Positions 6,302-63,522 of a stretch of 64,000 nt of DNA are shown piece by piece. The position numbers were made by a program, and so were the translations under genes. The notes below the pieces were generated by a model. That model was not told the DNA's origin. It worked only from the letters and a program-made list of their open reading frames with translations, and did not search any database. Location: contig CM119269.1 of assembly GCA_051294375.1 (NCBI GenBank), forward strand, positions 19,629,936 to 19,693,935. The letters run 5' to 3'. Numbering within the stretch: the stretch's first letter is position 1; the number at the start of each line of letters is the position of its first letter. Source of the stretch: Paraspadella gotoi. Lineage: Eukaryota; Animalia; Chaetognatha.

Positions 6302-6821
6302 TGTAGTGGTATGGTATTTTTTCATGACCCCAGCTACTGGGACGTCCGGAGACAACCCTATGGCGAGGCCGGGAGGTAGGCAGCGAGGGCCTGCCTCCCC
6401 AATGAACCAAGAAGGTTTCGGCGCCCTTGGCGGTAGTCCACACAAAGGTAAAAGGGCGACGGGCGTCTAACCACTGTAGTGATCGGACCTACAGCCCGTC
6501 CGAAGTTCGGGACCTTGTGTTGCAACGGACGGTAAACGCTCGCGGGAGTCCGTCTTCCACATTGGTGAGGCCCCCACGAAACGGGGCATGGCACAGTTTT
6601 AATACACCCTCCTGCCCGGCATGTAACACAACCTCTTGCCCTCCGAACATCTGTGTGTGACCGGAAGGCTGGAATAGGGCACAAGCCCCTCCTAAGAGTG
6701 GGCTTCGGGCCACCAAACCGTGCCATACATAGCATTCCACTTGCCGGGTGGTGATTCTAGGGTGGATGTAGTTGTACGGTTAGTTTCACTACCCACTTTA
6801 CTGTCCGGATCAGGGCAAGCA
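6302..6821 (+). mobile_element. Two-LTR non-autonomous element (TRIM/retrozyme-like), family A, running into an N gap
   Basis: LTR1 TGTAGT..CCACA 6302-6561; PBS-like tTGGTGAGGCCCC from 6562; purine tract AGGGTGGA 6759-6766; second LTR starts TGTAGT at 6767 and resembles the LTR1 start; left flank CTCA. Sequence is indel-noisy. Confidence 0.7.
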
Positions 6822-7004: not shown

Positions 7005-7251
7005 TGTAGTAGAGTAGATATTTCCATACCCCACTACTCGTCCGAGTAATTCAGCAGCACCTATGGCGCCCGGACTGGTAGCACGAGCTCCTCCCAACCC
7101 AAGACTCGGGTTCCGCGCCCTGCTGATTCACACAAGTAAAAGCGGGACGGGGCGTCTAACCCACCTGTAGTAGGTCGGCTACAGCCCGATCCGAAAGTTC
7201 GGGACCTTGTGGTGCAACGGACGGTAAACTGCTCGCGCATCGTCTTCCGCC
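7005..7251 (+). mobile_element. Family A LTR (noisy copy) flanked by CTCA target-site duplication
   Basis: ctca|TGTAGT ... cttccgcc|ctca; contains tRNA-like head and twister core matching 14264-14490. Confidence 0.7.
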
Positions 7252-14250: not shown

Positions 14251-14263
14251 TTCTCTTCGTTTT

Positions 14264-14490
14264 TATTTCATACCCCACTACTCGTCCGAGATTCAGCAGC
14301 ACCTTTTGGCGCCGGAGGTAGCACGAGCTCCTCCCAACACAAAGGACTCGGGTTCGCGCCCTGCTGATTCACACAAGTAAAAGCGGGACGGGGCGTCTAA
14401 CCCACCTGTAGTGTCGGACTACAGCCCGATCCGAAGTTCGGGACCTTGTGTGCAACGGACGGTAAACTGCTCGCGGCATCGTCTTCCACA
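14264..14490 (+). mobile_element. Family A LTR, 5'-clipped at an apparent assembly junction, followed by CTCA
   Basis: A-box-like TGGCGCCGGAGG, B-box-like GGTTCGCGCC, twister core, ends CCACA|ctca. Confidence 0.8.
14370..14452 (+). ncRNA. Type-P5 twister ribozyme (family A)
   Basis: P5 CACACAAG/CTTGTGTG; L1 GA-CGG; cleavage motif U^AA at 14398/14399; P3 TGTAG/CTACA; P4 CCCGA/TCGGG; L4 TCCGAAGT; pseudoknots CCG:CGG and AC:GT. P1 and P2 are short. Confidence 0.8.
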
Positions 14491-14657: not shown

Positions 14658-14912
14658 TATGGCAACAGCCGGGTTGCCTGTGATGCCCATTGGGATGGGG
14701 CATCTCACTGTTGGCTTTGGGGGCTTCCGACCCTCAGTGACGCCTCCAGTCACTGGCGCGGTTACCCTAGGACGGTCTCGCTTTGCCAACGCAGAGGGAA
14801 GTCGTTAGGACTGTGGATGGAACACTACGCTTGGGATGGTGTGTTCCCCCTCTGAGCCAATGGATTTGGCTGAAGGATGATGGACGTGAGGCGGTGTGAA
14901 TATACCGCCACA
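14658..14912 (-). mobile_element. Family B solo LTR, 255 bp, GCTT TSD
   Basis: Minus strand TGTGGCGG...GCCATA; gctt at 14654-14657 and 14913-14916; nearly identical to 51506-51760. Confidence 0.9.
14710..14790 (-). ncRNA. Type-P5 twister ribozyme (family B, core intact)
   Basis: Minus strand: GTTGGC aaa GCG a GA CCG tcctaggg TAA cCGC GC c AGTGAC..GTCACT ga GGG TCGGAAGC CCC ccaaa-like linker GCCAAC; pseudoknots CGG:CCG and GC:GC. Confidence 0.8.
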
Positions 14913-16276: not shown

Positions 16277-16392
<116 letters not shown>

Positions 16393-17446: not shown

Positions 17447-17559
<113 letters not shown>

Positions 17560-22800: not shown

Positions 22801-22975
22801 ATTAGAGTGGAGCACTCAAGAACAAAACAATTATTTGAATGATCGAATAAGGATATTTAGATGTGAGATAGTATGATAAGCTAGTACAAAAAATATTTTG
22901 TTCATATTGTCTCGGGAACAGAATAGTAAAATATAATACATTTGTAGTAATATTCTTATTTAAAATTTAAAATTT
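22801..22975. repeat. Dispersed repeat, reverse complement of ~44165-44338 (AT-rich MITE end)
   Basis: attagagtggagcactcaagaacaaaa...tctcgggaaca matches the minus strand of 44214-44338. Confidence 0.7.
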
Positions 22976-42147: not shown

Positions 42148-43465
42148 TTAACATCGATCTGATCTCAACGACGCTCCATAAATGAAGACTGACCTTAAGT
42201 CATTTTTGTACGCACCCGAAGATTCAGAATCGTTTCCCTCAACCACGAATACCTCTTGACTTCCGCCTGATTGAGAAAGGAATGCAGTATGTCAACAATA
42301 ATTATCTTTTGCTAGTTGCAAGAAAGAGCTCAGTGAAGAGACAGTAATTATTGTTATATGTTCAACCGTTCAAGCAGTCCCTGAGCTTCGGATCAGGCTG
42401 TAACACCGTGTTACAGGCGGGTTAAGAGCCCCGTCCCACTTAACTGCTAGGCGGCCACCGGGCTAGAACCCCGGACCTTTGGGCTGGGAGGCGAATGACT
42501 TGCCTCCGGCACCAATGACCGCTGATGAACGGTTGGTGGATTTTAGTCCACCATATCAAATTTTTTTTATGGGGGGTTCGACAATTTATTACTTTTCATC
42601 CTAATATATATGTCATATTATTTAATAGTTTTCCTAACCACAAACTGCGTAATTTGCCGTATCAACAGCGAAAGCTTGACTACAATTCGAATCTCCATTC
42701 ACCATAACTGCTGAGCGTAGATCCCTCGTCCATCGGCGTTGTCGATCGCGAAGACATCGGCCGCCGCGGCGCAGCCAGCGTCTCTGGCGCCGCTGAGTTA
42801 ATTCGCTTATTCTCCTTCAGCAAAACGTTTTTAACGTCGGCGTGCAGACCCGGGATCGGCAGCTCCGTGTTGAGCACTTCGAGGATGGCGCCGTCCGGGA
42901 GTCTGGAAGGGGAACGTAATAAAATTAATTATTCGTAAGTAGTTGGTTCTATTTGTTTCTAAAAACTAAAAAGGATATTTTCAGATATACACTCTAAATT
43001 TAACAATTAGCAATCTAATTTGTGGTTACTTTTACTTTCGCCGACCAGGGTTAGGGAGGGGTTAGGGTTAAGGGCGGTTTAAGGTTAGGGGTAATTAGGG
43101 TTTAGAGTGTTTAGGGTTAGGGTAATTAAATAATATTTTTTTATACTTTTTTTTAAAAACAAATATTTTTAAATAGTTTTTTGAAAGCCGCCAAAACCGC
43201 GATCGGCGAATGTAAAATTTGGCCCTAATTTTGATCATTAGACCCCCAACACTGGTTTTACTTTCCTTTTTGACTGTCAGCTATTAACTTATTAACTATT
43301 TTAAGCTAAGTTAAATACCACCAACGGAATAGATCTTAGTTGGGCTCGTCCCCTTCACGAATCAGCAGCAAACAGACGAATCACAGACCCGACGTGAGCC
43401 TCCGACTGACCATTGACCGACGGAGGGATCGACGGTAGTTTTAATGTTATCTCATGTCAAATCTT

Positions 43466-43514: not shown

Positions 43515-46500
43515 ACTTTTATCTCTGTGACTCACTAATCAGCTGTCAAATCTCAGACTACGACTAGTACGACTACTTTATTCGATTTCGTCTTCAAAAA
43601 AAAATCAAAAATAAATTTTTTTTCGCGTCAAAAATGACTTCGGCAAGTTGCTCATCAACCAATACCAAAAGTAAAGGTTGTATGTAAAAATACTTCTTTT
43701 TTGTTGCCATGCGCAGAAGGGTGGAGTGATGAAAAGATTGAGTGATTGAACATTATTTTTTTGCTGCTTATGGATATGTAATTAATAAATTTTAAATCCT
43801 TTTAAAAATCTTTTTAGTATAATAGTATAGTAAATTCAATTATTTATGTAGTAATATCCTTATAAAATCGTAACTTTTTTTATTTTTAAGAACAGATTTG
43901 GATCCGCTGTAAAAAATTAAGAAATTTTTATAAAATATGTTATATGATATTTTAATGTTTGGATCACAAAAAATGATTAAAACATTTTAACATATATAAG
44001 TTTCTATTACAAAGAATAAAAAAAATTATAAATTTTCACCTTTTTTCCCGTTTTAAACACTGAAGATGATATAATTTTTGATAACATGTTTTATATTTTT
44101 GATTCAACTTTTTATGAAAAATCTGAATCTTTAATAAAAGTTTTAAAAAAAAAAATTTTAAAATTTATTATTTTATAAGAATATTATTACAAAGATATTA
44201 TATTTTATTATTTTGTTCCCGAGATAATATGAACAAAATATTTTTTGTACTAGTTGATCATATTATCTCGCATTTAAAATTAAATATCCTTGTTCGATCA
44301 TTCAAATAATGTTTTTGTTCTTGAGTGCTCCACTCTAATGCGCAGTGCTTGGCATGTATACTTACAGGAAGTGATTTATTTACTTTGAATGATTGTTTGA
44401 TTGATTCGGCCCTTGTCTAGCTAGCAAGGTAACGAAAAAAAGTAATGTTTTAATAATTTTTTCTCTTATCATTTATGTATTGACAAAAAACTGTTCAATG
44501 TGGGCATTTACGGACTGCTTTATGGACCAATACTTTTTTGTCACTATCTCCATCGATGTAACATTTTTTTGAAAAAAAAGGGGAAAAAATTGAAAGCCAA
44601 AACAAAATATTCTAAAACTTTACGTAGGATATTATTATTAAAATTATAGATGCTAAACTCATGCCACAGTAATCTGCTACTCTACAAAAATTTAATGAGA
44701 TCCTAAACTAGCGGTAGTATTTCATACCCTGCTACTCGTCCGAGAATCAGCAGCACCTATGGCGCCGGAGGTCTCCCAAACCAAAGGACTCAGGTTCGCG
44801 CCCTGCTGATTCACACAAGTAAAAGCGGGACGGGGCCTCTAACCCACCTGTAGTGACGGACTACAGCCCGATCCGAAGTTCGGGACCTTGTGTGCAACGG
44901 ACGGTAAACTGCTCGCGGCATCGTCTTCCACAGACGGGCACTTTTAATCCACACCTAATTGATTGTTCAATATTATCTTTTCTTTTCTGTCAATATATTT
45001 TTCTATAAGTATAAGTTGAATATCAGAGTAAGTAAACGATATTTACTTTTCCTCCAGCTCAAGCGCCAACACCAACACCACCTTCTAAAGGCTGGACTGG
45101 CGTTGCCATCGGCGCTGGCGCACTCGTTGCTACCTGCGGGGTCTTCAGCGCCTTATAGTCCGCCGGCGCCGTGGGTATCGGCGTCGCCGGTAACGCGGTC
45201 ATCGGTGGGACCGGCGCCGTGACTGGTGCTGGGATCACCGCGGGCGCTGCCAAATTGGCCAAGTGGTGGAAGAGCAGAGTAAAAAAATCAAGCAAAGAAG
45301 ACGAAAGCACTGAAGACGAAAGCACTGAAGACGAAAATGAAGGAAGCGATCTCGAAGATGACCAAAGTAAAAAAGGAGGTGACGGCGGAAAAAAAAAGAA
45401 ATGATTTTTGGTTAAAAAATTTCGAAATCGTGAAAAAGTTCAATTCGATCAATGTGCAAGTTGTACTCGAAAAATTATTCGCTATCAAAGTTTTGTTACT
45501 ATCTTTCTAATTCATGATATTAAATTTTAAAGTAATTATTTTGTTTTGTTGTGTTTTATTTTTAAAGTTAATTCAATTTTCAGTTATTATTTTCTGCTAT
45601 TATTATTTACAAAGCCGTAAAAGACCGATGGGCCACATTTTAAAACAAGATGGCCACGTCAATAGATTTAAATTTGATGAATCAATTCGAGAAGTTTGGG
45701 ACTCTCTACCTATTGCTTTCTCTGAAAAGGTATCCTAACCGGAAGTAAAGTGACGAGAATGCGGGAAACTAATATATTGACGGAAGGAAAATCTATACTG
45801 AGACAAAAATGAGGGTAAAGAAAGGGAGAGAAACGAGTAGGAGAAGAGAGAAAGGTGAACTGCATCTCGTGAACGCGGCCCCGAATCCCTGGGAGGAGGA
45901 TGAAGAGGAGGTGAATGAGAAGGAGGAGGTAATAGACCCGCGTCTGTCTATCACCTTATATACTGGCTTTTTACGTAAAAGTTTAGTTTTTTTGCGTTTT
46001 TGTCCTCTCTTGAAAGAAAACTTGAAAGAAATCGCGATCGCACTTTGTTTGAATTCGCGAGGGACTTGATTTGCAGAAGCTGTTCCTCAGTTTCTTGGAT
46101 CAACTCATATCAGTATTTAATTATTAGTAATATTAGTACTTTGAGCGACGCGACGTCCAGACGCAAAACTCTACGTTTTCTTTCATTTCTTTCGGTTTCT
46201 TTTTGAGCTCCACTCGGTCTCACCTCAAAAACTGTCGGTGCAATTCTCTGAATCCGTCGAGATAAAGAGTGTGAATGGAGACGTGGGACGTTACTTCTTG
46301 CGCGGCGCTGCTGCGTCCAACGCTGCCACGCCTGACTACGCCCAGCTCCTCCTCGTCCCAAACATAATCGTAGACGGTGACTTTTCGACGTTCTCCTTCG
46401 TCGCCGCGCCATTGTTCGGCTCGTCTGTATATAACAATTAGTTATCTTGTATCTTGTAAAACCTTTTGGAGCTAGCGCCAAGAGCGAAAACAATTTTTTT

Positions 46501-49500
46501 TTGTTAAATTTAAAATATGCATGCTGGTAAAAGATTAAATTTTCATGTTTAAATGAATTAAAACCTGCAAATGAAAGAAAGTTCTTGAAGGGATAGTTCC
46601 AAATCAAACGGGACGAAAAAGTCGTCGTTGTCTCCCGTCAAACGATGGTAAACGTCCATCAGCCTTAAATAGGATTTGAACGTAGTAGAGTAAGCAGCTT
46701 TTATTGTTGCAGTAGTAGTAGTAGTTTACTTCAGTTTTCACTTAGTTTTCTGATAGTCATTTGATATGAGCCAACTGAAATGATCTCTGTTACCTGATAC
46801 CTATTACTTATTTGTTGCGATATGATTCTTTCTTTTTCGTTACGTTTGTAGATTTAGTAAAAAGTTTTTAATTGTTCTGTAACGATTTATTTATCCCTCA
46901 CCACTGTATCAGTTAAAATTTTATTTTTCACTTTTATACTCTACACATTAATTTATTAATTAATTTATTAATTTAATAAGTTAATTGTTAAAAATTTAAA
47001 ATTAGTTTAAATTTTTTTTTCTTTGTTGTACATAACCCATTGCATCAATCTATCATTGACTAAGCTTCTCTCCCTCTCTCTCCCCTACTCTCTCTTTGAC
47101 CATTTTCACTTCTTTTTAAAACTCACCCTTTCTGTCCTTAACTTTAATCTGTCCTCACCATTAACCACTGTCCTTTCTCAGAACAATTAAAATACTTATT
47201 TGTTGTATTACAATCTCCAATCCCCAATCCTAATAGTTTATATAATATACCTTCCGTTATTGTGAAGTCTCAAAAAGTAAATGTAGACGAGGAACGCCCC
47301 AAGAAATACTGTGAAAGTGTAGAGGAAGACCGTGATGAAGACGCCGTAGAGGCCCGTACCTTCGCTGCCCACAAAATGCCACCACAGTTTGGCGGCGTCG
47401 GCAATCTCGCGCGTTGACTCGGTGTGGGTAAAACGCTGGAGGGGGGCAAGAAGATAAATTTAAAAAAGTGAGGGAAAATGTAAATGGGGCGCAAAATTTT
47501 AAATTTAGAGTGGCTACAAAGTCATAGATTTGTGGGACAACCATCTCGTGCTCCATTGGTTAGAAAACGGACCGAACGATTGCGACCGAAATCGCCCATC
47601 CCACGGTCTTGAACCCGGGACTCCAAGCGAAGGTCTCTTTTGTTTACCATGGGCATCGTGGCGTCGACTGCGAGGATGAGGAGCGGATCCAATGCCGCTT
47701 GGAGTCCGAAGGCGAGAACAAATTTAGAGAGAATGCTGGGGAAAACGCCTGTGGAAAGAGTCAGACGTGTTTGAGAAGGTTTCAGAAAGTAGGAGGCTTT
47801 AGATGATTACTGCTTCGTTTGGTAAATAAAATTCGGGGTTTGATTTCTAGTTATACCTAATAACTTTTGTACGGCGAAAGAGACCAACAGAAGGACAACA
47901 AAAGCTCCGATGACAACCAGTGGCCCCGCGAGTGTCACGTAGACGACTTCACGAGTGAAACCGAGAGACGAAGATTGATAGTTCACTATTGCCGTGTAGC
48001 CATAAAGTTCGAACCTTTAAGTAAAAAAACGTTTGAGCCAATACGAAATTTTGACAAAAATATGCAAGAAATCATGCAGAATAAATGTCAATACATCCAG
48101 TATTCACTATTTAGTATATTTTAGCTAACTCACTTTAAAACTCTGTATTTTCTCTTTATTGTCTAATCTCTAACTAACTACTAAGAGAAGAGACGTCTCG
48201 TCGTCTTTAACTAATTATTAAAATAAAGTATTTTTAAGAAAAAGTAAAAGGTATACTTTTTAATGTTTCTTTTGCTAATTTTTCAGTAGATATACATAAA
48301 GATGTAACGAGTAATGTAAAAGTAAAGTAAAAGAAACTAATAAACGAAATATAACTAAAGGAAATCTTTCAAACCATTTAATTAGCTCGTCTTCTCCTTA
48401 GGAGACAAAAAAATCGCCAAATTTCAACCCTGCACCTCCAAAGTTAATCGTTCGATGCGAATACGAACTCTTTTCACATTTTCACCAATGGCGGCGCCAA
48501 ACTCTTGACCTTCCCCTTGGACATTTCGAGAATCCGATCGCTGTCCGCCAACGTTTCGGGTCTGTGCGCGATCGTCAGGACGGTGCACTCTTTAAACTCT
48601 GTCCGTATCGTCTCCTGGATCCGTTTGTCCGTCTCAAAATCGACGTTGGCCGTTGCCTCGTCGATGCAAAGGATTCGCGTCCGTTTGACGACGGCGCGCG
48701 CCAAGCAGAGCAGCTGCTTCTGCCCGACGGAGAAGCAGGAGCCGCCCTCGGCGACGGGGGCATCTAGACCGCCCAGCTCGGTGACCCGCTCTTCAAGGTG
48801 ACATTTTTTTAGCGCCGACCAGAGGTGGGCGGTATCAGTCGGACCGTCGTCGAAGGCGCTGTCAACGACGAGGTTCTCTCGAACGGTTCCACTAAAGACG
48901 TAAGGATCCTGTGGAGATAAAAGAACTGATAGATAAACTTTTTTTTAACGATTTGATTTTTTTTAAGCTTAAATTTCCCCGACTTTTTTTAAAGTTTAAT
49001 TTAAATAGAAACATATTGATTGATTGATTGTTTATGTTTAATATCCACATTTATTGATTGATTAAAGAATAACTTAGGTTTATCCCCCGGCCATAACAAA
49101 TAATATCTACTTTCCTGGGGAATGACTGCGAGACGCGATCTTAACAGACGTCGACTGATCCTTGATGCGTCAACCCCGTCGATGACGACCCTCCCGCCCT
49201 CCAGCGTCTCCACTCTGAAGAGAACGTTGAAGAGCGAGCTTTTCCCGCTCCCCGTGCGACCGACGATGCCGACCTTCTCCGCCGGCGCCGTTTCGAAGCT
49301 CACGTCCTCCAGCGCCGGTTCCAGGTCGGCGCGGTAGCGAAGGGTGACGCCATTGAAGGCGACGACGCCGCGATCGGGCCATGACTCAGGAACGGAAGCG
49401 TCGTCGAAGGTCTAAACGAATTAGTGGGGAATTTTAGGAGTTTCTGTTCCTGTTAAGGCTTGTGAATTGGAAAATACGGTTAAAAAATTCCTTTTTTTCT

Positions 49501-52500
49501 CGGTATTCTTCTATTTTTTCTTTCTTTCTTTCCCTTTTTTATTCCTATCTTTCTTTATTACTTTCTTTATTTTGTTTGTTTTCTACCTCTCTTCGACTTT
49601 TTCTTACTTTCTTCCTCTCTTTACTACTCCCTTCTCCTCTTTCTTCTTTTCCTTTCTAATAACGAATTTTTATTTTTTTTCATCGGTTTCTTTCTTCTCT
49701 TCCCTTTCCTTCCTTTTTCCCAACACCTCCCCATGGTTCCCAATCCCCAAAAATAACCTCATCTTCATCTTCCTCCAGCGGTGTTTTCGTCGAGTATTCC
49801 AGGATCCTCTCAACGCCCACCATCATCTTCTCCAGCCAAGTGAAGTGCTGCACGACAGAGTTGGCCAACCAGCTGACCTGTAGCGCGTAGGTGATTGTGA
49901 GGCCGACGAAGCCGGCCGCGCCAGTCTGACCGCGCAGCACCGCGGAGAGAGCGACGCCGCCGATTACGAGGAAGTTGGCGAAGCCAAGGTAGATCTTGTG
50001 ATGGGAAGTGACATTAAAGGATAAGAATTTTGATAAGGATAAGGATATTAAAAGTTGTTTCACCTCGAGCCAACCCGAAACGGCGTATGAGTTAAACTCT
50101 GCCCTAGCCTTTGCCTCTATGCGCGCAAGGCTGGTGGTGACGAAGCGGCGCTCGTCTCTCATGGCGCGGATGACGACCGCCCCGTTGAGGCAGTCGGAGA
50201 AATGAGAAAAGATCGGGGATTTCGTTATGGACTCAATCCGCTTCAGTTCCCGCGAGGTGCGCCTGTAGATCAGCTGGAGGCGGTAAAGAGGGAGTAGAGC
50301 GGAGTGAAGGTAATTAGTTATAGGAAGATTAAATCAGATAGAAGATAAATGTGATTCAACAATGTGACTCTATTAACAAACAGTTTTTTCTTTTTTAGTT
50401 TAAATTTGAAAATAAATCTCTTTTACCTGAAATACGAAATAGAGCAAGAATGCGGGAACAAGAGCTAAAACGAGCCATGGAAATCCGTAGCAGATTACGA
50501 CCATCGCCATCAGCAGATTGAAGACGTCCTGCAAGAGCATGCTGAAGAGATTGGCCAGATGGTCGTCGATGTCGGCCAAGTCGCTCGAGAACCGGTTGAT
50601 AATCCTGAAAGGTTAGTGTCATTAACGAAGCTTTAAAAAAACCAAACTGTTGTCCTCAGTCTAAGAGACTTTCAACATTTTCTTTTTTGACGGAAGAAAA
50701 AAGAATAATAAAAAGTAAAACCACTGGCCATACCTCCCAACAGGCGTCGCAGTGAAAAAGCGCAGCGGCGCAGCCATAATTCGTTCCAGCAGAGCGGAGT
50801 GGATGCCGCGCGCCGATTGAATGCCAGCGCGGATGAAGACGAAAGTAAGAACGCAGGATGTGGCGAACTGACAGACGAAGAAAGCGCAGTAGACGCCGAG
50901 ATAAAAAGTAAGGTTGTCCGAGGCCTCGCGAAGGGGGATCCAAGGGGTGGTGGCGGTGGTTGCCGCGAAGGAGTTGTCGTCCGTCTTCCAAGCGGTGACG
51001 TTGACATCCTCTTCGACCCTCCGTGCCTCCACCCTTGTGTCGTTAGTGACGGTCGCATTGGGATAAGGATGAGTGTTGTTGATCCACACCGTCATCCAGA
51101 TGTCCATGCCCCTGACGAAGAGATATAGCAAGGCCACACAGAGGACGATGAAAGCCCCGACGGCACGCCCCGTGTAGGACAAGTAGGCCCAGTAGACTTT
51201 GGGGTCGACGAAGCCAACCATCTTCGTCTCTTCCTCCACCAGTTTGTCGTTGCCCGACGCCGGTTCGTCGGCGGCGGCGTCGGCGGCGCTTTTTAGCCGC
51301 TCGCGGTGGGAAGATTCGACGGCGTCGAGGAGGGCAGCATCGAAGATCTCCTAGCGGTCGAGGGGAGAAATGTCGATTGCTCTTTTATTTACAATCAATG
51401 TTTTTAAATTGTGGAATTGAATATTTCTATGATATTTACATGAATTTTTGTTTTTTAATTTTTTTAAATATTTTTTTTTCTCGAGAATTAGTAAAAGTGT
51501 AAAACTATGGCAACAGCCGGGTTGCCTGTGATGCCCATTGGGATGGGGCATCTCACTGTTGGCTTTGGGGGCTTCCGACCCTCAGTGACGCCTCCAGTCA
51601 CTGGCGCGGTTACCCTAGGACGGCCTCGCTTTGCCAACGCAGAGGGAAGTCGTTAGGACTGTGGATGGAACACTACGCCTGGGATGGTGTGTTCCCCCTC
51701 TGAGCCAACGGATTTGGCTGACGGATGGTGGACGTGAGGCGGTGTGAATATACCGCCACAAAACGATAATATATTATGGTTCATGCTTCAAACGCCGTTT
51801 AATAATAAATCAAAATAATTATTTTGACAATTTGCCTATAAACCCCTTACCTCAGGCTCTCCCACCCTCGCGATCCTTCCTTTTTCCATCACGACGATTC
51901 GGTCCGCCGACCGCAGAAATTTCCCATGATGCGTGCAGAGCACTCTCGTCTTATTCTTCAATACTCCGACCACGCACTGGAGTTAATATGTAAGAAAACA
52001 GATTCAATCAATCAATCAATAAATAAATAAACCGGTTAATACAATTTTAAAATGAATAAAAAAAAACCGATCGAAGATATGAATCAATTAATTAATCAAA
52101 TTCTCAACAACAACCTGTCGAAAAAGCTTTTCGGCGACTGCGGGATCCACCGCGGCGAATGGATCGTCGATGACGTAGACATCCGCGTTGGCGTAAACCG
52201 CCCGCGCCAACGCCACGCGCGCCTTTTGTCCCCCGCTCAGAGTGACGCCGTTCTCGCCGACCTCTGTGTCGACGCCGGCGGGGAATTCGGCGACGTCTTC
52301 GGCGAGTTGACAGGCGGCGACGACGGCGTCGAACCAATCGGGATCGAAGGCGCGCCCGAAGAGGATGTTTTCCTTTGGGTTTGGGGAAAATCCAACTGAT
52401 TGTCTCATTTTCAAGACGCCTGCATTTCCGTCATGAAATAGTTTTAGTTTCTCTCATTCTTCTTCTTCTCTTTCCGCCATCCGTTTTTCTTTATAAATAT

Positions 52501-55500
52501 AACTATATACTAGAGTGATGTGAAAATGATAAAATTTTAGAAAATTAAAATTTAGCATATAAAACATGAACATAAAAACCAAAAAAAATATTTTGATAAA
52601 TTCATTTTTTAATTTTATACATTAGTGGGTACCAGTGAGCTATATTTCTATATAGTAATAAGTATATAATAGGCTAAAATTTCAAAATACAAATTTTTAA
52701 ATTTTAAGATCGGATTTGGATTCCTTGCAAAAAGTTATTATAAGAAAGTACAATTCTTTTTTAAAAATTCTTTCATTAAGTTAGTCAAAAATGTAAAAAA
52801 CTATATTTAAGACGCTGAGTTTAAATTTCCAGCTTAAAAATATAGTTTTTTATAATTTTAACCTACTTAATGACATAATTTTTGAAAAAGATTTATACTT
52901 TCTTTTATTAACTTTTAACGAGGAATCTGAATCTGTTCTCAGAATTAAAAAAAACCATTTTAAAATTTTGACATTATATAAGGGTAGTACTATATACAAA
53001 ATAAGCTGACTGGGCTACTATATTTATAACAAAAAAAATAATTACAGATTAGTATTCACTAATATGATAGTTTTCAAGATATAACTGCTAAATTTTGATT
53101 CCAAACTTTCACTTCACCCTACTATATACAGTAGTAGCAAATTTACCATTATTTTTTTTTTTAACGCCCCCTGCCTACCTTAATGGAAACTTGTTGCAAC
53201 CACGGTTCTTGCGGCAGCACGCAGACGGTCCTCTCCCGCCATTTTCGACTCCAACTGACGCGACCGCTGCAGAGAGTCAGGTCACCCAACAGCGCAGCGA
53301 GGAGAGAACTTTTTCCGCTGCCTACGACGCCGATGACGCCGACCAACTCGCCAGGCTTCAGAGAAAAACTGATGTTAGATATGACGGGTTTTTCTATTAC
53401 ATGCGAATCGACCGGGTTTTCGGTGCCGTTAGATGTGACCGAGATTTCATTATCATCAGAAGTGGCGGGTCCTTGAATTTCATCGGCAGTGGATGTATTC
53501 TCGTTATTTTGGGTGGAAGCGTTTAAAAAGTTAGAAGAAGGAAGAGCTTGATCAGTAAGTTCGCCCTCGTCCTTCCTCTCGTCGTCTTTCTTTTTTTCTT
53601 TCTTCTCTTTCTCCTTCTCTTTATCTCCCTCTTTATTGATCTCTTTATAATCTACTCCGTCGTCAATGTCCCAAGAAAAGTCGGCCTCTTCGATGGAGAC
53701 GAGCGTCTCCTCTTCCTCCTCCTCCCCTTCCTCCTCCTCCTCCTCCAAAAGAGCGAAGAACTTCTTCAGACGATCGTAAGAGACTTTGGCCTCGATCAAC
53801 ACCCCGGCCGCGATGGGGATCATGAGGAGAGGTTCCACCAGGGCGAGGATGAGGGAGATTGCGGTGAAGATGCGGGCGGCGGTGAGTTGACCGCCAAGGA
53901 GAGAGTAAGCCACGATGGTGAGGAACGCCATCACGGAGGGCGTCACGTTGAAGAAGACAAAAGCGCAACCGTCGTAGACTTTGATCTTGAAAAGAATCGC
54001 GAAACTCAAGATTCGGCTTTGTTCATTATTTATATTAACATTTATTAGTGGTTCGAATATAAAACAATTCCACTTTTTTTTTTAACGTCATTTAATTCAC
54101 AGTTAATATAATGATAGTGATGAAAACGTTCAATCTCATAATGGAGTGCAGTGGAAGAAACAAAGAAAATTAATAATTTTCCATATATTTCGACATACGT
54201 ATATGTTTCTATGTGATCTTCAGTGGATGTAAGAGAAAAAAAAACTTTTACAAAATATGAAAGAGAGAGATAATGAGAGAGAGAGACAATAACAAAGAAA
54301 ATGTCTGTGATGTTATCATGTCTGATATTGCGTATGCTTTTCTTGTGAATGCTTGCATTGGTAGTGGTTGATGGCTGTTATGAGATTTTGGGTTCTTCTG
54401 ACCACTTTAAGATAATTTAACCTTTGATTGTTATTGTCTCTCTCTCATTATGTCTCTCTTTCTTATTTTGTAGAAGTTGTTTGCTTGTTAATTTTATTAC
54501 TTCCACTCAACATGACATAGAAACATATGTCGAAATACATGGAAAATTATGACCTTTTTTTTTGCACTGCACTCCATTATGATATTGAATGTTTTAATCA
54601 TTTTCAATTTCATATTTTCATAATTTAAAAAAAATTCATATTTCTCATACATAATTTAATTTAATTTTTTTTTTTATATTTATGCCTGTCAATAACATGT
54701 TGTCACGATTCTTTTTCCTTTTTGAGGAACTTTAATTCAAGGTCGCGAATTTCCGTTATTTTCCGTTTGAACGATTCTTCCCATGATTGGAATTTTATGA
54801 CTTTTATGCCCGTCAGTACTTCCCTGTAAATTAGGAATAAATCAATGTTCAATAATCAACACGTATTCAATGAATCATTCACTCAATCAATTTACTATTA
54901 ACTAAAATCACCTGATCATCTTGATCCTTTTATCCTTCTGCGACATGTTCTGGTCCCCGAACTTGTACCACCCACTAGCCATAAAGTGACCCAGCGGGGC
55001 GGCCAGCACCATGAACCCCACACAAGCCAGAAAGGCCCAGCCAAGTAGAAGGTAGAGCAAGTAGAAGATCTGGATCACGAGCAATGGAGTGATCCAGACG
55101 TCATGAAAAAAGTAGACCGCGCTTTCGATTCGGTTCACATCTGTGGACATCAAATTGAGGGTAGTACCGCTGGTAAATTTGGATCGAGAGGGTGTCTTCA
55201 GTCGCAACAGCTTGCGGAAGACAAGGACGCACAAGGAGCTACGGATCTGTAGGGAGGGGTGTGGGATGGCATAGAATGGGTGCATCGTTGGGTGCTTGGA
55301 AAGAGATACTGTCACAACAAAGCTAAAATTTCACGGTAGTTCCCCAGATCTCTAACCTTGATGCTTAGTTTACGCGCAAAGTAGTGATAGTGAGTGTAGA
55401 AAAAGGCGCTTGACAACTCTCCGAAGCACAGCAGGGCACCGAAGGCGGCACCGCGAAGCCGTGACGTCGGCGAAAAGATCGACGAAGACTCCGATTCTGG

Positions 55501-58500
55501 CTGCTGCATCCACGACAGCAGCAAATTCTGCGCCAAAGGGCCCAACAGCTGTAGAACGCAGTAGCAAAGAAAGCGCAAGAGGCCGAGAAAGAGAAACTGA
55601 AGACCGAAGATGCGAAAGAAAACGCGCAAAAAATTGGGCGTGGAGGTGAAGCGGCGTCCTTTTCGATCCGAGACGTCTGCGTCGTTTTCGGCGACGCCGG
55701 TTAAGATCGGCGCCGCGCTCCGCTTCTTGGCGAATTCGGTCGACATCCGCTGATCGATCCTTCGGAGGTCGATGTCCTCGGGAAGATGGAAGACGTCGTC
55801 TAAATTGTCCAAACTTTGACCGCGGCGCAGAAGAGGATGGAGCCAGGAAAAGACGAGGTAACCGAAGGTCGTCGTATCTTCCGCTTTGATTGTGGAGGAA
55901 GAGGAAACGAGGGCGCCGTCTTCATCGTCGTCGTCGCGGGCGAGTGGCAACGTCAAGTACCCTTCGGCACGACCGGCGCGCAAAAGCGGCGCTCTTTCTC
56001 CGGCGTCCGGCGATTCGTTGATGGCGATTGCTCTCGTTTCTGTAAATAGTGGTGATTTTTTAAGAGCTTTTTTTACTTTACAAACCTTTACATTTGTTTT
56101 TATTATGGGTTTTTATATTTTTTATAAAAAATTAATTAAATGAAAATTTAACATAGTAAATTGATAAGTAAATGAAAGTCAAGTCACCTTCAAAGGATCT
56201 TCTTCTCCTTATCCTTCTCCTCTTCCACTTCCTCCTTCCGCAACTGACGCAGGCGACGTAGACGTCGACGACCACAGCGACGCCGTAAGCGCACAACAGC
56301 GCCGCCGCAAGATTATTCGGCTCCGCCCAAGACTCTGCGGCGTCGTAGTCACGTACGCCCGAGCGAAGCAAGACGACGCCGGAACCAAACCACGTCAAAT
56401 AGGCGACGAGCGGCGTTCCAGGAGGGCAACGACGCAGAATTACGCCCACCGACGCCGTCAGGGCGAAGGCGGCGACGACGGCGCCGACGACCAGAGCCGG
56501 AGTTAAATCTTCGACGCCGGATAGAAAGTAGAGGACAGCTGGACGGAGGAGGAGGAAGAGAACGAGCAAGGGGCGGAGAATCCATCGGAGGACAGAAGGA
56601 CGGAATGAGGAGGAAGAGGAGGAAGAAGGAGGAAAAGACTGTCTGACGCAGCAGGACAGCAGGGCGACGAGGAAGAGCAGCAGCGGCGGGGTGGGGACGA
56701 CGACCAGGGCGGAGAAGCAGGGCGAGAAGTCGGTGGCGTTGGAATCCCAGACGATGAAGTCGAAGGAGGAGGAGGAAGAGGAGTTGATCGGTCGACATAG
56801 AAAAGAGATGAGTTCAGAGGAGGGAGATGATGTCATGGTGGACAGTTGGGCGAGGTCGGTGATTGGAGAAAATATTTCTCAACCACGAATAAGAGGTGGT
56901 TGCTGTAAGGGATGATTTTAGATTTAATAAATTGAAATACAGTTTATAAAATTGAAATAAAAAGATACGATTCTAAATATATTAAAAAACTGAAATAATT
57001 TATGACATTTCATGATTAAACTAAGTCGAAGATAAACTGAGAAATTTGTTCGACAATTAAATATAAAAAAAAAAGATTGCGTCTACTTACGAGAATAGCC
57101 GACTAAACGATTACGCAAGAACAGGTTTTGTTGACTGTTCGACTGTTATCGACCAAAGAGAGGTAGGTTCCGAGGTAAGGGTGATGCGCGCTGCGCATTT
57201 GTTTGAAAATCCAACTTAAAAAGCTCTCGATGAAAAGAGATGTCAATGCACGCCGTCGATAAGAGTAGCGGTTGTTACAGTGAGATAGTCTAATAATCAT
57301 TAAATTAAATATTTATCTGTTTCTACGCGACGCAAATTTCGAGCCTGAATTAGGTCCTAGACTTCGACTGACTCAACAGTCAACAAATTAAACCACGACA
57401 TGCAAAGTAGAAAAGATGTTCTTTTGTTGCTCTTAAGATTTCAGAATTGTTAACCGACGGTGATAACCATATGAAATCTCGAAACTGTAAAATACGCGAA
57501 ACCCATTTAAAAATTAATTAATAATTTTGGCTAAAGTTGTTTTAAATAGCTAGAAATTTAATAGCCAAGCTATCAAACTACCTTCTTGACTAATCTATCC
57601 TAAATCTATCCTATATTAAAATATAATTAGCCAGTAAAAAAAAACGCCACCAACCAACAGTAAGCAACTGTATTCACTCGCACCCCTTTCAATCTCTCTC
57701 ACTTGTTCCACGGTTTCCTCATGGCCATGAGCACGAGGAATTGCCCGCCATAGTGAACGGCTACTCGGAGGAGGAACGTAAAGAAGATCATGAGCACCAT
57801 GGCCCAGAAGTCGGGCGTCCGCCACTGCGAGAGGCCCAGTTCAGAGAGCAATTGACGCCTGGCGTAGGAGGCCCGTTCCCAGGCTGGTTCGCCTGTCGAC
57901 GGGGTACAAGAAATAGCTGAGGGGAACTTTTTTTATATTTCATTTTTTTAAAATTGTTGTTTACTTATTTATTTATTTATTTAATCTCATCTCTTCTCAG
58001 TTCTCACTAACCTAAGCTTCTTTTCTCAGAAAATGGGGGTTTAACGGCGAATTCGTGATGCTCCAGCTGCTGCAGATGCGTCAACCGTCGTTGCGGCTGT
58101 TGACGTCGCTGCAACATCATTGTCTTAGGAAGAAGCGCAAACCTGAAAATAGAAACCGTAAATAAAATAAAAAAATATATAAATTTAAAGTAAAGACGAA
58201 TACTCCATATATCCTCACAAGATCGTTCTATCACATCTCTTCATTCACTCACATTTTATTCTGGTAAATGTCGACGGGATTGAGTAGGTGGCGCTTGTAG
58301 TACATTCCTGTCTGACCTTTGACCGGAAGGAAACTCTCATCGACGTCGTCGTCGTTGGCTGGAACGAGCCGCTTTTTGTCGTCATCGTCGTCGTCGTCGT
58401 CGTCTTCGCTGGAATCATCACTTTGGGCAACGAAGAGTTTTTTGCCGAAACTTCGGCTTCCGATTGTCGTCATGGGTCGACCTCTGCCTCTTCCGCCGCA

Positions 58501-61500
58501 GCCGTCGGCCCCACCGCCGCTTAAGACGGACGAATCGGCGACTTTGTTGTTCTTCGTCTTTCGACCCAAAATGGCTTTTCCCTTATAGGGTCTTCGTCGT
58601 TTCGGTTCCGTCGAAATCAATGAATCTTCCGAACTCGATTTGAGTCTTGTGAGCGCCGCGAGTCCCGCCGGCGTCGCGGTCAGCGCCGGCGACGCCGCCC
58701 CTTGCAGCGCCAAGGAAGACGAAGATCCTAGAAGCGGCGTTCTGAACGACAAGAAATTCAATTTTTTTTTAAAAAAAATGAAAACATATCTAAGAATAAC
58801 AAAACATCGAAAATACTATTAATACCGCTTAAAAAAATATCTTCAAAAGTTAACGCCCACTTTCCTACGCTGTTTCCTGTTGATGTTTATTTTACGTTTT
58901 TACGGCAAAACAGACGGAAGCGAGAGTCAATCGGCCTCGCTCCGACAGACCGAGGTCCCGATATTTGTCTCTTACCCGCCACGTGGCGTCTCCACCGGCG
59001 TTGGAATGACGTCAGAGACGGTCGATCCGGCGCCGATTTCCGGTTCTTCGCCGTCGCGCGACGCCTCGGCGCCGACGACGCGATCCGGGTGACCGAGAAG
59101 GGAGGAGGTGAAGTTGATCTCCACCTCGAACTCCTTTTGGCCACCGAGGTATCTGGTGGTGGTTGAAGAGTTTGTTGAGGTTTGGCGCGATTTAGAAAGG
59201 GGTCGCGCATATAGTTGTCATTGTGGCAACAGCCGGGTTGCCTGCGATGCCCATTGGGATGGGGCATCTAATTTTTGGCTTTGGGGAGCTTTCTACCCTC
59301 AGTGACGCCTCCTGCCACTGGCGCGGTTACCCTAGGACGGTCTCGCTTTGCCAAAACAGTGAGAAGTCACACATTGAGCGCCACTCTAAGGTCGGGTAAG
59401 GCTGACTCGGGGGAAAAAACTAATAAAACGCTGGACGGGAGAGGGCTGGTGAGAGAAAAAAGAGAGAGAAAGCGTGAAAGAAACCCTAACCCTGGCCTCG
59501 GCCCTGGATCTCCGGGAGGAGGGGGAGGAGGATGAAAGAGAAATGAAGAGGAAACGTTGCATGCTGACGAAGCCAATCGGATCTTTCGGATCCAATCGGA
59601 TGGAACGTAACGCTTAGAATGGTGCGTTCCCCCTCCGAGCCAAGGGGATTGGCTGAACGATGGTGGATGTGAGGCGGTGTGAATATACCACCACATCATT
59701 GTAATATTGATAATACTAATACTACTTCACCATATCAATAAATAAAGTACTATTTCTTGATCCAGACCCACGCCCTATCATCAACCTTCCCCTCCTGACC
59801 TCGGCAGCCTAACGACTTCGAAGTAAAAATTGCAGAGCCAATTGTCGATGTCCTCGTTGATGATTTCCTCCAACTTTTGATGCTTTTCGATCCGCGGGTC
59901 CATCTCTCCGCGGAGCATCGGGCACTTGTATTTTCCTTGTTAAAAAACGAAAAAAAACAAAAAAAACATGCTTTCAAAAAAAAAATCGGTAATTACCGTT
60001 AAATTATCGTATGTAGTGCTTGAAGTGGTTTGAGATTAAATCTAACCTTTCAATTAGTGAAAGTATAGAGGGCACTGCCCGTGTTTAATCAAACAATCAA
60101 TCAATTGAACGATTGATCGATTTTTAACCGTTGATCATTTATTCAATAATTAAAATTATATTCGTAAATGAAGAATGAAAATAAACTAATTACTCAATCA
60201 ATCATTCAAGGAAGAATCAATCGATCAATCTCTTCGTCGTCCACCTTCTATGATGTTGAAGTCCGAGTTGGAGATGGGAAAGCATCCCCACGCGACGACC
60301 CTGTCCGTGTTGACGACGGCGCCTCTCAACAAAAAGACCTCGAAGACAAGGATCATCCCAGGACGGACGTCCGGTTTTGACGGACAGACAGTGAAGACGG
60401 ATTGATTGATCTGTGAGTCGGGCGGAGTTTGGCAGATATAAGATAAAAAAAAAAAAAAAGAACAAAAACAACAATAACAGAAGCAGAGAGCAGCAACAAA
60501 CCCCGCGCCTTTTCCCCGTCTCACCTTGATCTCGACGTCGTGAAACCTCCCCGCGTGCGTGACGGGCAGCGACGCCCCTCCCCACTGTTGCCCCTTGAGT
60601 TTGGACCAGCGGAGGACGTTGCCCCCGAGTCGGTTGTAGAGCGACGCCATGACGACGTAGCGGCCGCGGGGGAGTTTGTCGCGGACACCGCGAAGGCATT
60701 TTAGACTGGGAACGATTTGGATTTGATGTAGGATAAATGCAAGTATTGTAGTCGGGCATTGCTTACTGCTAAGGTTCACACCGCCTATAGGCATGACACC
60801 TTCAGTTGTGACCCGGTGGCTCATTGAGTAAAGCCATCAGCTCATGACCACTAGGTACCGGGTTCAATCCTAACTTATCCTGCGGGAAGCGTGAGAACGG
60901 CCGTAAACCACCTTGGGGCGTGGAAAACCCTCAAGCCCGATTCCAAGCCCAGGACATGTTCCATTGCTGCTGCGGGGGCACAGAAGATACGGAAAGAAGT
61001 CTTCAGCCCACTTAGCGCCTTATTCACAGGAAAATTATTTTAGGAATGAGTAAATGAGCGCATAAATGAATTAATGCAAGGATAAATGATTTATTTGATT
61101 GATTGATAGTTATGAGTGTTAAATTATCAGCGTAAAATTAGGAATGAAAGGAAATACAAACTAAAAAATAAAAAACCCGCCAAAATTAAAAAACATAAAT
61201 AATTAATTAAAAACAAAAAAGGCTAATAAGCCCACAAAAAATACTTACCAAACCCACTCCACTTACCGAATCTGCACCGGCTGCGGCGTCTTCTCCCACT
61301 CCACCTTCCATCTCCTTCCTTTGGCCCCTCCGTATTCGCCGTCGGCCAAAGTCAAGTCTCCGTACATCGTCTCCACCTCTGGGAAATAAATTACCCTTAT
61401 GTCGATTTCTTCATACCATAGTATTTTTTAAACATCACACTGTGGCATCAAACTCCGGCTTCCATGTTTTTCTCACCGGCTTTCCTGTGCCGGAGAGCCC

Positions 61501-63522
61501 AGAGCAGTTGGCTCTCGGCCCTCTTGAAGGCGTTGTGGAGGATCTCCAAGTGCATCCTGTCTCGATGTCGAAGGGCAGACTTCTCCCATTTGATCTTCGC
61601 CAACTGCCTTTTCGCTTCGGCGACGACGCGACGTTTCGCGGACTCTTCCTGAGGGGGCGGGGGCGGAGAGGGGTAGGGAAATGGTAAGGTAGTGAAAAAG
61701 TAAGAACTTTAAAGGTAGAAATCGGAGTTAATGCGAGAGAAGCAAGAAATGGCTGCACGGGAAGGTCGTCTGCGTCCTCGACTTCCCTCATTTAACTTGG
61801 GGCAATTGATTATAATCACTGGCCAAGTTGTCAACTTTTGTTGTACGCATCAAGACAAATTTAATCAAATGTTTTTAATATATTATTCTAAAAATCTAAT
61901 GTTATGTTGATTTTTAATATATTTATAACATAATCGATTTTGGATAAAAAAAAGTTTTTTAGCTCTTCTCTCAACCCTCACCCCAGCTTCCTACCTGCAG
62001 CATCAGCAGCTGCTGCCTCTTGATGATCAACTCGGCCTCCTTCGCCACCCGCCGCACCCTCCCTTCTCTGTAGGCCTTCTCCTCTTCCTCCAACTCCTCC
62101 GCCGTCCGAACTCTCGTCAACTGATCCGCGACTTGACGCTCGAAGTCGCGTAGCGCGTCGTCGTCCTCGTCGTCGTCGACGTTTTGGCGAAGCGTGGCTC
62201 GGAGATCGGCGATCTCGGCGTAGGTGGGAACGTTGTTGGCGTGACTGAAGAGGTTGGGGAAGTCGGAGGCGTCGGTGGGAGCTGGGAGGGGATGAGAAGG
62301 AAGGAGGATCACGAGGGGAAGCCGGCCGAGGAGCTGCGTGTACTCGGCTAAAAACACTGGGTGTACATTGAAAAATAAAAACGAACTGCACGGTGCACAA
62401 ATTAAACCATTAAATCGAGAGAATAGAGAACAGAAATCGGAGAATACTACCTAAAAAATAGAAAATGGAATAAAAAGTAATCGGGAATTAAAAAATAACT
62501 TTTTATATTTTATTTCAATTTATGTTAACCTGCTCGAGCTAACGTCTCGGATTCCGTTGAGTCTTCCAGGCGAAACGTTTCTAGTTCGTCAGCCTACCAT
62601 GAAAAAGTAACCTTTTTTATTGTTGTATTGACATCGCGTGCACAGTTTATTTATTATATTTTTTTGTGAATTAAAATTTAACGCATGAAACGCTAATATT
62701 AGAAGAAAATTTATTAGTGAATTTTACAATGGCAATTTTATTGGGGTTTTTTTTGGCCAATATTTCGATTTACATAGAGAAATCTTTTTTCAATATAGCC
62801 TTGAAAAATGATTTTTCCATGTAAATCGAAAAATTGGCCAAAAAAAACAAACAAACAAACAAACAAAAACAATAAATTGCACCCACTGACATTTTTTTAT
62901 TTTTTTACTTTTTACAATATTATTTTAACATTTAATACAAAATTAATTATTTACTTATTTAGTATCGAACCTGAAAGGACTGGTTCTCAAGCTCGGCCAG
63001 CATCTCATAGAGTTTCTTCATTTGGTCCAAAGATTTTTCTGGCGTCGAAGTCAGGTCTAAATCGTCGGGGGATTCGAAATCGCTCGGACTCCCGAAAGAA
63101 AACTGAAATCGACGGTTGATATAAAATTTATAGGTTGTTTATTCTTTTATGTACATATATATAAATTACTGTCTCCTAAAATTAAACGTACTTGATATAT
63201 TTGTACGTATACGTGGAATACAAAAAATATTTATTTTCTGCAATTCCGGTACGAAACGTAAAGATAATGTTATTAAGGACATTGAGAAAATTTTAGCATC
63301 TATTTTGGCACATTTGTCAGTACATATGAGAAAACGACTCAACGCTAAAACGCTAATTTTTATCCGCTCTATCACTGTCACAATCATTTGAAATCTTGTT
63401 ACATATTCTTTTACAACGAATACTACTCACTTGGGAGCCAGTCAGCGAAGACTAATAAGAAAATAGAAAGAAATCATTCGACATCATTCAAATCATCTCT
63501 CTCTCTCTCTCTCTCTCTCTCA

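What the first reader, a model, noticed from the sequence alone, without database searches (positions are those of the whole stretch)
44744..44812. tRNA-derived Pol III promoter embedded inside an LTR, directly upstream of the ribozyme
All families show A- and B-box-like motifs just 5' of the twister. A/A2 resemble tRNA-Gly (CTCCCA loop) and C resembles tRNA-Met (CTCATGA), so heads may have been swapped or captured independently. This is analogous to Cassandra TRIMs, which carry 5S promoters in their LTRs. Self-cleavage would remove the 5' head, but a monomer would regain it from the 3' LTR. Caveat: a T4 run at 6597 and 44942 might terminate Pol III early.
Basis: partly seen in the sequence, partly recalled or inferred. 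Interest (0 to 1): 0.75.

Follow-up and report, generated by a model that had tools for sequence, protein, structure and literature searches.

The report
Twister-ribozyme LTR element with tRNA promoter
This is a tRNA-derived sequence inside the terminal repeat of an abundant, non-coding jumping element in an animal genome, directly followed by a predicted self-cutting (twister) RNA, so the element likely uses RNA polymerase III and self-cleavage to make the RNA it would copy back into the genome.

Summary
44744-44812 is a tRNA-derived head inside a 224-nt, highly repeated LTR (44709-44932). A type-P5 twister-like fold starts at 44812, 10 nt after the B box, with a predicted cut after 44840. 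Four diverged families in the window (A, A2, B, C) share this order on one strand. Intact heads match 16-17 of 19 invariant tRNA positions. Between A and A2 the boxes are conserved, the stems and LTR flanks are not. The twister's pseudoknots change in compensatory fashion between families. The quoted copy is a poor example: it lacks 11 nt, and family A has C at B-box position 58. tRNA heads in LTRs are already known (Helenus, Kojima 2024). My searches found no Helenus with a ribozyme, no twister in an LTR and no animal LTR retrozyme. Best reading: a Helenus-like element that likely cycles like a plant retrozyme. Pol III use, cleavage and circles are untested. A T4 after the primer site and twister-less variants argue for caution. 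The very short P1 is self-complementary in three of four families, which hints at cleavage as a dimer of the two LTRs.

The parts
44709..44932 (+). Family A LTR (first TG missing, ends CCACA; no TSD found)
   Evidence: Loose ends at 44709 and 44932; summed contig depth 11,000-48,000 against 33-36 on the flanks in run X1
44744..44812 (+). tRNA-derived head with closing stem (the finding); lacks 11 nt after 44772
   Evidence: loose ends at 44772/44773
44760..44771 (+). A box (tRNA positions 8-19; C at 14)
44773..44779 (+). Anticodon-loop remnant, CCC triplet
   Evidence: positions 32-38 in the intact copy
44793..44803 (+). B box (C at position 58; no variant of 10% or more listed at 44799)
44812..44894 (+). 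Type-P5 twister-like fold with P3; predicted cut between 44840 and 44841
   Evidence: descriptor hit with perfect T1 and T2, 0 hits in 30 shuffles; P3, P4, P5 in the MFE fold
44834..44839 (+). Minimal P1 linker; most copies have G at 44837, which makes it self-complementary over 6 nt
44933..44955 (+). Probable remnant of the internal region with T4 at 44942-44945; primer site mostly lost
   Evidence: aligns to the internal region of the 6.3-kb copy, 2 of 1000 shuffles
14264..14490 (+). Family A LTR with intact head (position 8 at 14307) and twister 14370-14452; followed by CTCA
7005..7251 (+). Noisy second assembly of the same family A locus; TGTAG start preceded by CTCA (4-bp TSD together with the 14.3-kb copy)
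6302..6561 (+). Noisy family A 5' LTR of the only full-length-like copy (TGTAG..CCACA)
6562..6766 (+). Internal region: TTGGTG primer-site-like start, T4 at 6597, short purine tract ending at 6766
6767..6821 (+). Start of a second LTR, cut by an N gap
   Evidence: aligns to LTR starts, 21 and 29 of 1000 shuffles; gap at 6822
42373..42521 (-). Family A2 head (position 8 at 42514, CCC triplet) plus twister 42448-42373; cut after 42424; LTR ends not fixed
14658..14912 (-). Family B solo LTR, TSD GCTT; boxes 36 nt apart; twister 14790-14710
51506..51760 (-). Family B solo LTR, TSD AAAC, in sense within an intron of an ABCC10-like gene; twister 51638-51558
59222..59695 (-). Family B solo LTR, TSD TCAT, decayed, with about 243 nt inserted at 59354-59598
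60747..61028 (+). Family C LTR; head position 8 at 60817, CAT triplet; decayed twister at about 60881-60960 whose pairings are intact in most other copies; no TSD found

Best explanation
The stretch is a tRNA-derived head inside the LTR of a non-coding, highly repeated LTR element, placed directly before a predicted type-P5 twister ribozyme; it likely serves as an internal RNA polymerase III promoter, and self-cleavage in both LTRs would release a unit-length RNA that likely circularises and is copied by a helper LTR retrotransposon. Shown: the head, the LTR ends, 4-bp TSDs, the twister-like fold with covarying pseudoknots, and the same order and strand in four families. Inferred cycle: Pol III starts near 44753 in the 5' LTR and must read through a T4 after the primer site. 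The twister cuts at the same U|AA in each LTR, which gives the RNA its 3' end without a terminator and removes the 88-nt 5' head. The monomer keeps the 3' LTR's head at its 3' end but has no terminal repeat. P5, P2 and T1 span the cut, so its two ends can re-pair and be ligated. A tRNA-primed reverse transcriptase running round the circle rebuilds both LTRs, and a Gypsy-type integrase inserts them with a 4-bp duplication.
For: Head: 17/19, 17/19 and 16/19 invariant tRNA positions in A, A2 and C (0, 0, 1 of 300 shuffles). Cloverleaf stems are lost (anticodon stem 1/5, 3/5, 2/5) while the boxes are kept, the pattern Kojima reports for Helenus. Twister: 5 perfect descriptor hits in 64 kb, all in these LTRs, 0 in 30 shuffles. 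T1 is CCG/CGG in A and A2 and CGG/CCG in B; T2 is AC/GU in A and GC/GC in A2 and B; P3, P4 and P5 differ in sequence yet pair. In C the majority letters in public contigs restore T1, T2, P4 and the B box (60896G, 60910G, 60938T, 60940G, 60871C). The B box ends 10-13 nt (A, A2, C) or 25 nt (B) before P5. No sense-strand T4 lies between the A box and the LTR end in the 6 uninterrupted copies scanned (44.7-kb, 14.3-kb, A2, C and two B copies); the 59-kb B copy has T runs only in its insertion. LTR nature: 4-bp TSD in 3 of 3 B copies and at the 7.0/14.3-kb A locus; primer-site-like start, purine tract and a second LTR start in the 6.3-kb copy. Animal Helenus make 4-bp TSDs and are proposed to use Gypsy. 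The circle model is that of plant retrozymes. A Pol III SINE with a hammerhead that ends up with its promoter at the 3' end is known in Schistosoma.
Against: Nothing here shows transcription, polymerase, cleavage or circles. Family A amplified with C at positions 14 and 58 of its boxes, although the same B-box letters occur in published Helenus-1_PolSpa. A T4 follows the primer site in both copies where that region is seen (6597, 44942). Rfam scores neither tRNA nor twister here. P1 has only 1-2 pairs and P2 needs a bulge or mismatch; a review passage says changes in P2 length may disturb the active site. Contigs that skip the family C twister exist, one at summed depth 507 in run X5, and the C head is laid about 7-9 times deeper than its twister half, so the ribozyme may be dispensable. 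Only one full-length-like copy was seen; it is noisy and its second LTR is cut by a gap. No TSD was found for the 44.7-kb, A2 or C copies.
Confidence: 0.55

Rival explanations
1. Helenus-type linear cycle with the twister as a 3'-end maker. Pol III transcripts in which only the 3'-LTR ribozyme cuts keep an 88-nt terminal repeat (start to cut) and are reverse-transcribed by ordinary strand transfer; no circle is needed.
For: The twister sits where several published Helenus LTRs have a T run after the B box (Helenus-2_CGi, Helenus-1_LiLo, ULTR-1_NVi, Helenus-1_TheEle). Weak P1 and P2 could make cleavage slow. Twister-less variants exist.
Against: Both LTRs carry the same ribozyme, and the 5' copy is made first and has longer to cut. 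Other Helenus LTRs (LTR-11_DR, Helenus-1_CGi, Helenus-1_PolSpa) have no T4 after the head, so a terminator there is not required.
Confidence: 0.2
2. The head is a relic or a structural module. The RNA comes from Pol II (a U3 promoter or host read-through) and the twister frees it, as ribozymes do for other retroelements.
For: C at position 58 in family A, shortened spacing in B and in the quoted copy, and the T4 after the primer site. Plant retrozyme LTRs have promoter activity upstream of the ribozyme without a reported tRNA head in the passages read.
Against: The boxes, not the stems, are what stays conserved between A and A2, and all four families keep both boxes in sense.
Confidence: 0.13
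3. An ordinary Helenus whose twister-like segment no longer cleaves, or serves only as a folded recognition signal.
For: P1 of 1-2 pairs, imperfect P2, no Rfam hit; twister-less variants.
Against: The catalytic letters (UAA, GA, U-NNN-AA) and both pseudoknots are kept through compensatory changes across families. Three phage Twister-P5 above Rfam's threshold also have a 3-nt P2 strand. Twister keeps activity without P1.
Confidence: 0.09
4. A tRNA-derived SINE with a ribozyme, not an LTR element.
For: tRNA head plus ribozyme is the layout of Schistosoma SINE-like repeats; most copies in the window are single units.
Against: The repeat starts about 44 nt upstream of the head, has TG..CA-type ends and 4-bp TSDs, and one copy shows a primer site, purine tract and second LTR. 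No simple-repeat tail.
Confidence: 0.03

Closest known systems
Helenus (TRIMp3; Kojima 2024, PMC10886601)
   Same: tRNA-like sequence with A and B boxes inside a short LTR, no functional cloverleaf, primer site and purine tract, 4-bp TSD in animals, many solo LTRs, Pol III use inferred but not shown.
   Different: A twister-like fold follows the head. The main text never mentions twister and has 'ribozyme' only in one reference title. Twister-core motifs searched in the supplement gave no twister layout in the places shown (3 of 6 'tccgaag' and 3 of 6 'tcccgag' places were shown, and FASTA line breaks can hide motifs).
Plant LTR retrozymes (Cervera 2016, PMC4918200)
   Same: Non-coding LTR element with a self-cleaving ribozyme in the LTR, primer site, purine tract and 4-bp TSD; promoter upstream of the cut.
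   Different: Twister type P5 instead of type III hammerhead; animal host; tRNA-derived head. A 2020 review says metazoan retrozymes lack LTR, PBS and PPT. Circular RNA not shown here.
Schistosoma SINE-like repeats with Pol III promoter and hammerhead (review PMC6765202)
   Same: Pol III promoter plus ribozyme; after cleavage the promoter lies at the 3' end of the monomer.
   Different: Non-LTR tandem repeats, hammerhead; single copies lose the ability to spread, whereas an LTR element would rebuild both ends.
Twister ribozyme type P5 (Rfam RF02684); twister variants of Perere-3 (PMC8501958)
   Same: UAA and GA of L1, L4, T1, T2, P3 and P4 in the P5 permutation; P3 resembles the Schistosoma one.
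   Different: P1 is 1-2 pairs on a 6-8-nt linker, T1 letters differ, P2 is imperfect, no Rfam score. Perere-3 is a non-LTR element with type-P1 ribozymes.
Cassandra and Ajax
   Same: Small-RNA-derived Pol III promoter inside a TRIM LTR.
   Different: 5S rRNA-derived, no ribozyme reported in the passages read.

Membership tests
Helenus (TRIMp3) | tRNA-like sequence with A and B boxes inside the LTR | tested here: met
   GGTTC in A, A2, C, TGTTC in B
Helenus (TRIMp3) | LTR ends of TG..CA type and 4-bp TSD | tested here: met
   3 of 3 B copies (one end reads TG..CA, the other TG or TA) and the 7.0/14.3-kb A locus; not found for the 44.7-kb, A2 and C copies
Helenus (TRIMp3) | Two LTRs around a short internal region with PBS and PPT | tested here: inconclusive
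   one noisy copy, second LTR cut by a gap, 21 and 29 of 1000 shuffles
Helenus (TRIMp3) | Short and non-coding; head is not a functional tRNA | tested here: met
   LTRs 224-282 nt, internal 205 nt; ARAGORN 0; stems broken
Helenus (TRIMp3) | Pol III transcription | not testable with these tools
   also unvalidated for published Helenus
Helenus (TRIMp3) | Descent from a published Helenus lineage | not tested
   supplement sequences were read by eye only; the author considers Helenus to have several origins
Twister ribozyme type P5 | L1 UAA and GA; L4 U-NNN-AA-NN | tested here: met
   the 51.6-kb B copy has GG for GA
Twister ribozyme type P5 | Pseudoknots T1 (3 bp) and T2 (2 bp) | tested here: met
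   perfect in 5 copies with compensatory changes between families; restored by majority letters in C
Twister ribozyme type P5 | P4, and P5 closing the ends | tested here: met
   P4 3-5 bp, P5 6-8 bp
Twister ribozyme type P5 | P2 of four Watson-Crick pairs | tested here: inconclusive
   3 pairs with a bulge or mismatch; three Rfam-positive phage examples have a 3-nt P2 strand
Twister ribozyme type P5 | P1 of at least two pairs | tested here: not met
   1 pair in A and A2, 2 in B; the forced hairpin is unfavourable in all, C included; P1 is dispensable in a mini-twister
Twister ribozyme type P5 | Scores against Rfam twister models | tested here: not met
   positive control found 3 hits in 17 phage loci
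Twister ribozyme type P5 | Self-cleavage at U|A | not testable with these tools
   needs an in vitro assay
LTR retrozyme | Hammerhead ribozyme in the LTR | tested here: not met
   the fold is twister-like; Rfam finds no hammerhead
LTR retrozyme | Ribozyme in both LTRs of a full element | tested here: inconclusive
   second LTR is cut before the ribozyme
LTR retrozyme | Circular RNA accumulates | not testable with these tools
   only assembled contigs were available
tRNA-derived SINE | Element begins at the tRNA head and ends in a simple-repeat tail | tested here: not met
   repeat starts at 44709, head at about 44753; ends CCACA

The most novel reading that the evidence does not exclude
An animal LTR retrozyme built on a twister that works as a dimer. 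Its P1 is too short to fold alone but is self-complementary, so the ribozymes of the 5' and 3' LTR pair through P1 and cut only once a full-length Pol III transcript exists. That would spare solo-LTR and host intron transcripts and deliver both ends ready to close into a circle. P1 is the best self-pairing k-mer of the whole LTR in B (1 of 248) and C (1 of 277), 11 of 219 in A and 28 of 211 in A2; against permutations of its own letters only B stands out (30 of 1680; A 24 of 60, C 7 of 20, A2 31 of 90). Palindromic, dimer-cleaving hammerheads are known in Penelope-like elements.
Probability: 0.22. Interest if true: 0.88.

Novelty: new variant of a known kind. Interest (0 to 1): 0.72.

Why it matters
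It joins two systems so far described apart: Pol III-promoter TRIMs and ribozyme-driven LTR retrozymes. It would put an LTR retrozyme in an animal, where the passages I read say ribozyme repeats lack LTR, PBS and PPT, and give twister a role in an LTR element. It makes two open questions cheap to test: whether tRNA heads in LTRs really drive Pol III, and how such a transcript gets its 3' end. Standard tools (Rfam, ARAGORN) miss both modules, so similar elements may be overlooked elsewhere. If P1-mediated dimer cleavage holds, it would be a twister that senses a full-length transcript.

Tried and rejected
ARAGORN and Rfam found no tRNA or twister in the window or in three 351-nt stretches. No genome is held for this window, so host tRNAs, clean full-length copies and the helper element could not be examined. 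No RNA holder listed; run X9 is only guessed to be RNA. MAFFT did not align the twisters of family B structurally, so I used a descriptor. That descriptor is strict: it recovered only 1 of the 3 Rfam-positive phage twisters among 137 loci and misses the decayed C copy. Pattern scans found no relatives in metagenome contigs or viral contigs. No earlier findings. An early guess that the GC-rich flanks were an endogenous virus was dropped: they are host exons, including an ABCC10-like gene 50-61% identical to proteins of many animal phyla with no close match, so the phylum is unresolved. A functional tRNA was rejected (stems broken). A 6-bp TSD for family B fits only 1 of 3 copies exactly; 4 bp fits 3 of 3.

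Full report
Setting. The window is animal DNA: intron-split exons include an ABCC10-like gene whose best matches are spread over many phyla at about 50-61% identity. No whole genome is held. The left part is a noisy assembly in which 7.0-14.2 kb is repeated at 14.3-21.6 kb, so the family A copies at 6.3, 7.0 and 14.3 kb probably represent one locus; the 5' flanks of the first two align (0 of 1000 shuffles).

The element. Public contigs laid on 44500-45100 show a repeat from 44709 to 44932, with loose ends at both places and summed depth of 11,000-48,000 against 33-36 on the flanks in run X1 (the tool warns this is not a copy number). Families B (14658-14912, 51506-51760, 59222-59695, minus strand) and C (60747-61028) reach about 440,000 against about 18. 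B copies have exact 4-bp TSDs in 3 of 3 cases, and the 7.0/14.3-kb A locus has CTCA on both sides; the 44.7-kb, A2 and C copies show none. The noisy 6.3-kb copy continues after CCACA with TTGGTG, 205 nt of internal sequence, a short purine tract and a second LTR start cut by a gap. These are LTRs of a short non-coding element.

The head. ARAGORN and Rfam miss it. Scoring 19 invariant tRNA positions (recalled), the two best sites in the window are the A and A2 heads, at exact canonical spacing. Against shuffles of the LTR segment, A and A2 score 17/19 (0 of 300 each) and C 16/19 (1 of 300). B fails this test but has both boxes 36 nt apart (14/15, 0 of 500). The two noisy A copies are not significant. 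The quoted copy lacks 11 nt, so it scores 13/19, but keeps both boxes 34 nt apart (13/15, 9 of 500). The cloverleaf is not kept. Between A and A2 the A box (11/12), B box (7/9), anticodon loop (6/7) and positions 39-52 (10/14) are conserved, positions 1-7, 20-31 and 62-72 are not (2/7, 4/12, 4/11), and U3 and U5 show no similarity. That is the pattern expected of an internal promoter. Against it, family A has C at positions 14 and 58. Gly and Met are read from the triplet alone.

The ribozyme. I built a descriptor from the domain table in PMC8501958 and the review PMC5408937. It gives 5 perfect hits in the window, all inside these LTRs, and none in 30 shuffles; with two mismatches allowed it adds the decayed 59-kb copy and one chance-level hit (null mean 0.33). 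The ends lie in P5. T1, T2, P3, P4 and P5 differ in sequence between families yet pair. In the decayed C copy the majority letters of public contigs restore T1, T2 and P4. Departures: P1 has 1-2 pairs and P2 three pairs with a bulge or mismatch. Three phage Twister-P5 found as a positive control also have a 3-nt P2 strand but long P1 stems. Activity is predicted, not shown. The B box ends 10-13 nt before P5 in A, A2 and C, and 25 nt in B.

P1. The linker between T1 and the cut cannot form a stable hairpin (forced energies +2.7 to +5.6 kcal/mol) but pairs with a second copy of itself: -11.0 (B), -10.7 (C), -6.3 (A majority), -2.7 (A2). It is the best self-pairing k-mer in the B and C LTRs, but only B beats permutations of its own letters. 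I noticed this after the fact, so it is a lead. Penelope-like hammerheads with a palindromic short stem cleave as dimers; twister can also work without P1, which weakens the need for a dimer.

Mechanism. Shown: anatomy and conservation. Inferred: Pol III starts near 44753; cleavage after 44840 removes 88 nt; the same cut in the 3' LTR ends the RNA. The monomer then has no terminal repeat, which in plant retrozymes is solved by circularisation before tRNA-primed reverse transcription. The P5 permutation lets the two ends re-pair across the cut. No T4 lies between the A box and the LTR end in the six uninterrupted copies scanned. But 44933-44955 aligns to the start of the internal region (2 of 1000), so the T4 runs at 6597 and 44942 are probably one conserved site after the primer site, and Pol III would have to read through it. 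Several published Helenus also have T runs after the head, so read-through may be general. Contigs that skip the C twister, one at depth 507 in X5, and a C head laid about 7-9 times deeper than its twister half suggest twister-less relatives, or simply reflect this copy's decay.

Comparison and novelty. tRNA heads inside LTRs are Helenus (PMC10886601; I read parts 1-4 of 6 of the text, a term search, and passages of the supplement). Ribozymes in LTRs are plant retrozymes (passages of PMC4918200 and PMC9695139). Passages of PMC7761336 say metazoan retrozymes lack LTR, PBS and PPT and place twister in RTE-type elements. Passages of PMC6765202 describe Pol III SINEs with hammerheads in Schistosoma. 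For PMC8501958 I read passages and one section, for PMC5408937 and PMC7215508 passages. Nine searches of the open library (listings only, apart from the papers named) showed no twister in an LTR element, no Helenus with a ribozyme and no dimeric twister; subscription papers and Repbase entries were not searched. It fits Helenus in anatomy, works likely like a retrozyme, and is not a retrozyme by ribozyme class.

Verdict. Observation confirmed; interpretation partly supported. tRNA-derived head plus twister-like fold in an LTR: about 0.93. Full Pol III, double-cut, circle model: 0.55. New variant of a known kind; interest 0.72.

Noticed in passing
window 60866-60988 (joints): Contigs skip the whole family C twister (depth 507 in X5, 36 in X9, 12 in X6, none in X1); another joint 60874-60975 in X1 and X6. 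Possible twister-less Helenus-like subfamily.
   Followed up: partly
window 44772-44806 (loose ends in X5 and X9): A contig shares the family A head but has a different A-box side and continues into a T4 instead of the twister. In X9 the bins 44773-44814 are about 5-10 times deeper than the twister bins; which contig causes this is not shown, and X9 is only guessed to be RNA.
   Followed up: no
window 44932 to 44709 (joints): A joint from LTR end back to LTR start in X9 only (depth 87, letters between not known): could be a tandem LTR, a full element or a circle.
   Followed up: no
window 48474-56878, minus strand: Intron-split ABCC10-like transporter gene; a family B solo LTR with its twister lies in sense within an intron (51506-51760).
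   Followed up: partly
window 59800-60706 (X9 record 27): One X9 contig joins three exon-like pieces, so X9 holds spliced sequence; the gene is unidentified.
   Followed up: no
window 59354-59598: About 243 nt inserted in a family B LTR; part of it (59470-59533) is itself repeated in DNA runs.
   Followed up: no
window 13294-13304 and 24190-24200: Canonical B-box sequence at a duplicated locus, not followed by a twister; possibly another tRNA-derived repeat.
   Followed up: no
window 52599-53043 and 62746-62848: Long inverted repeats, possibly MITE-like; 22800-23044 also matches 44340-43718 in reverse.
   Followed up: no
window 970-4700: Pyrimidine-rich tandem array with a unit of about 90 nt.
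   Followed up: no
window 7019-21575: About 7 kb assembled twice at 75-89% identity with N gaps; copy counts in this part are unreliable.
   Followed up: partly
L006 139-197 and L007 111-189: Two Twister-P5 ribozymes about 1.9 kb apart on one viral contig (IMGVR_UViG_3300037486_000364), both with a 3-nt P2 strand.
   Followed up: no
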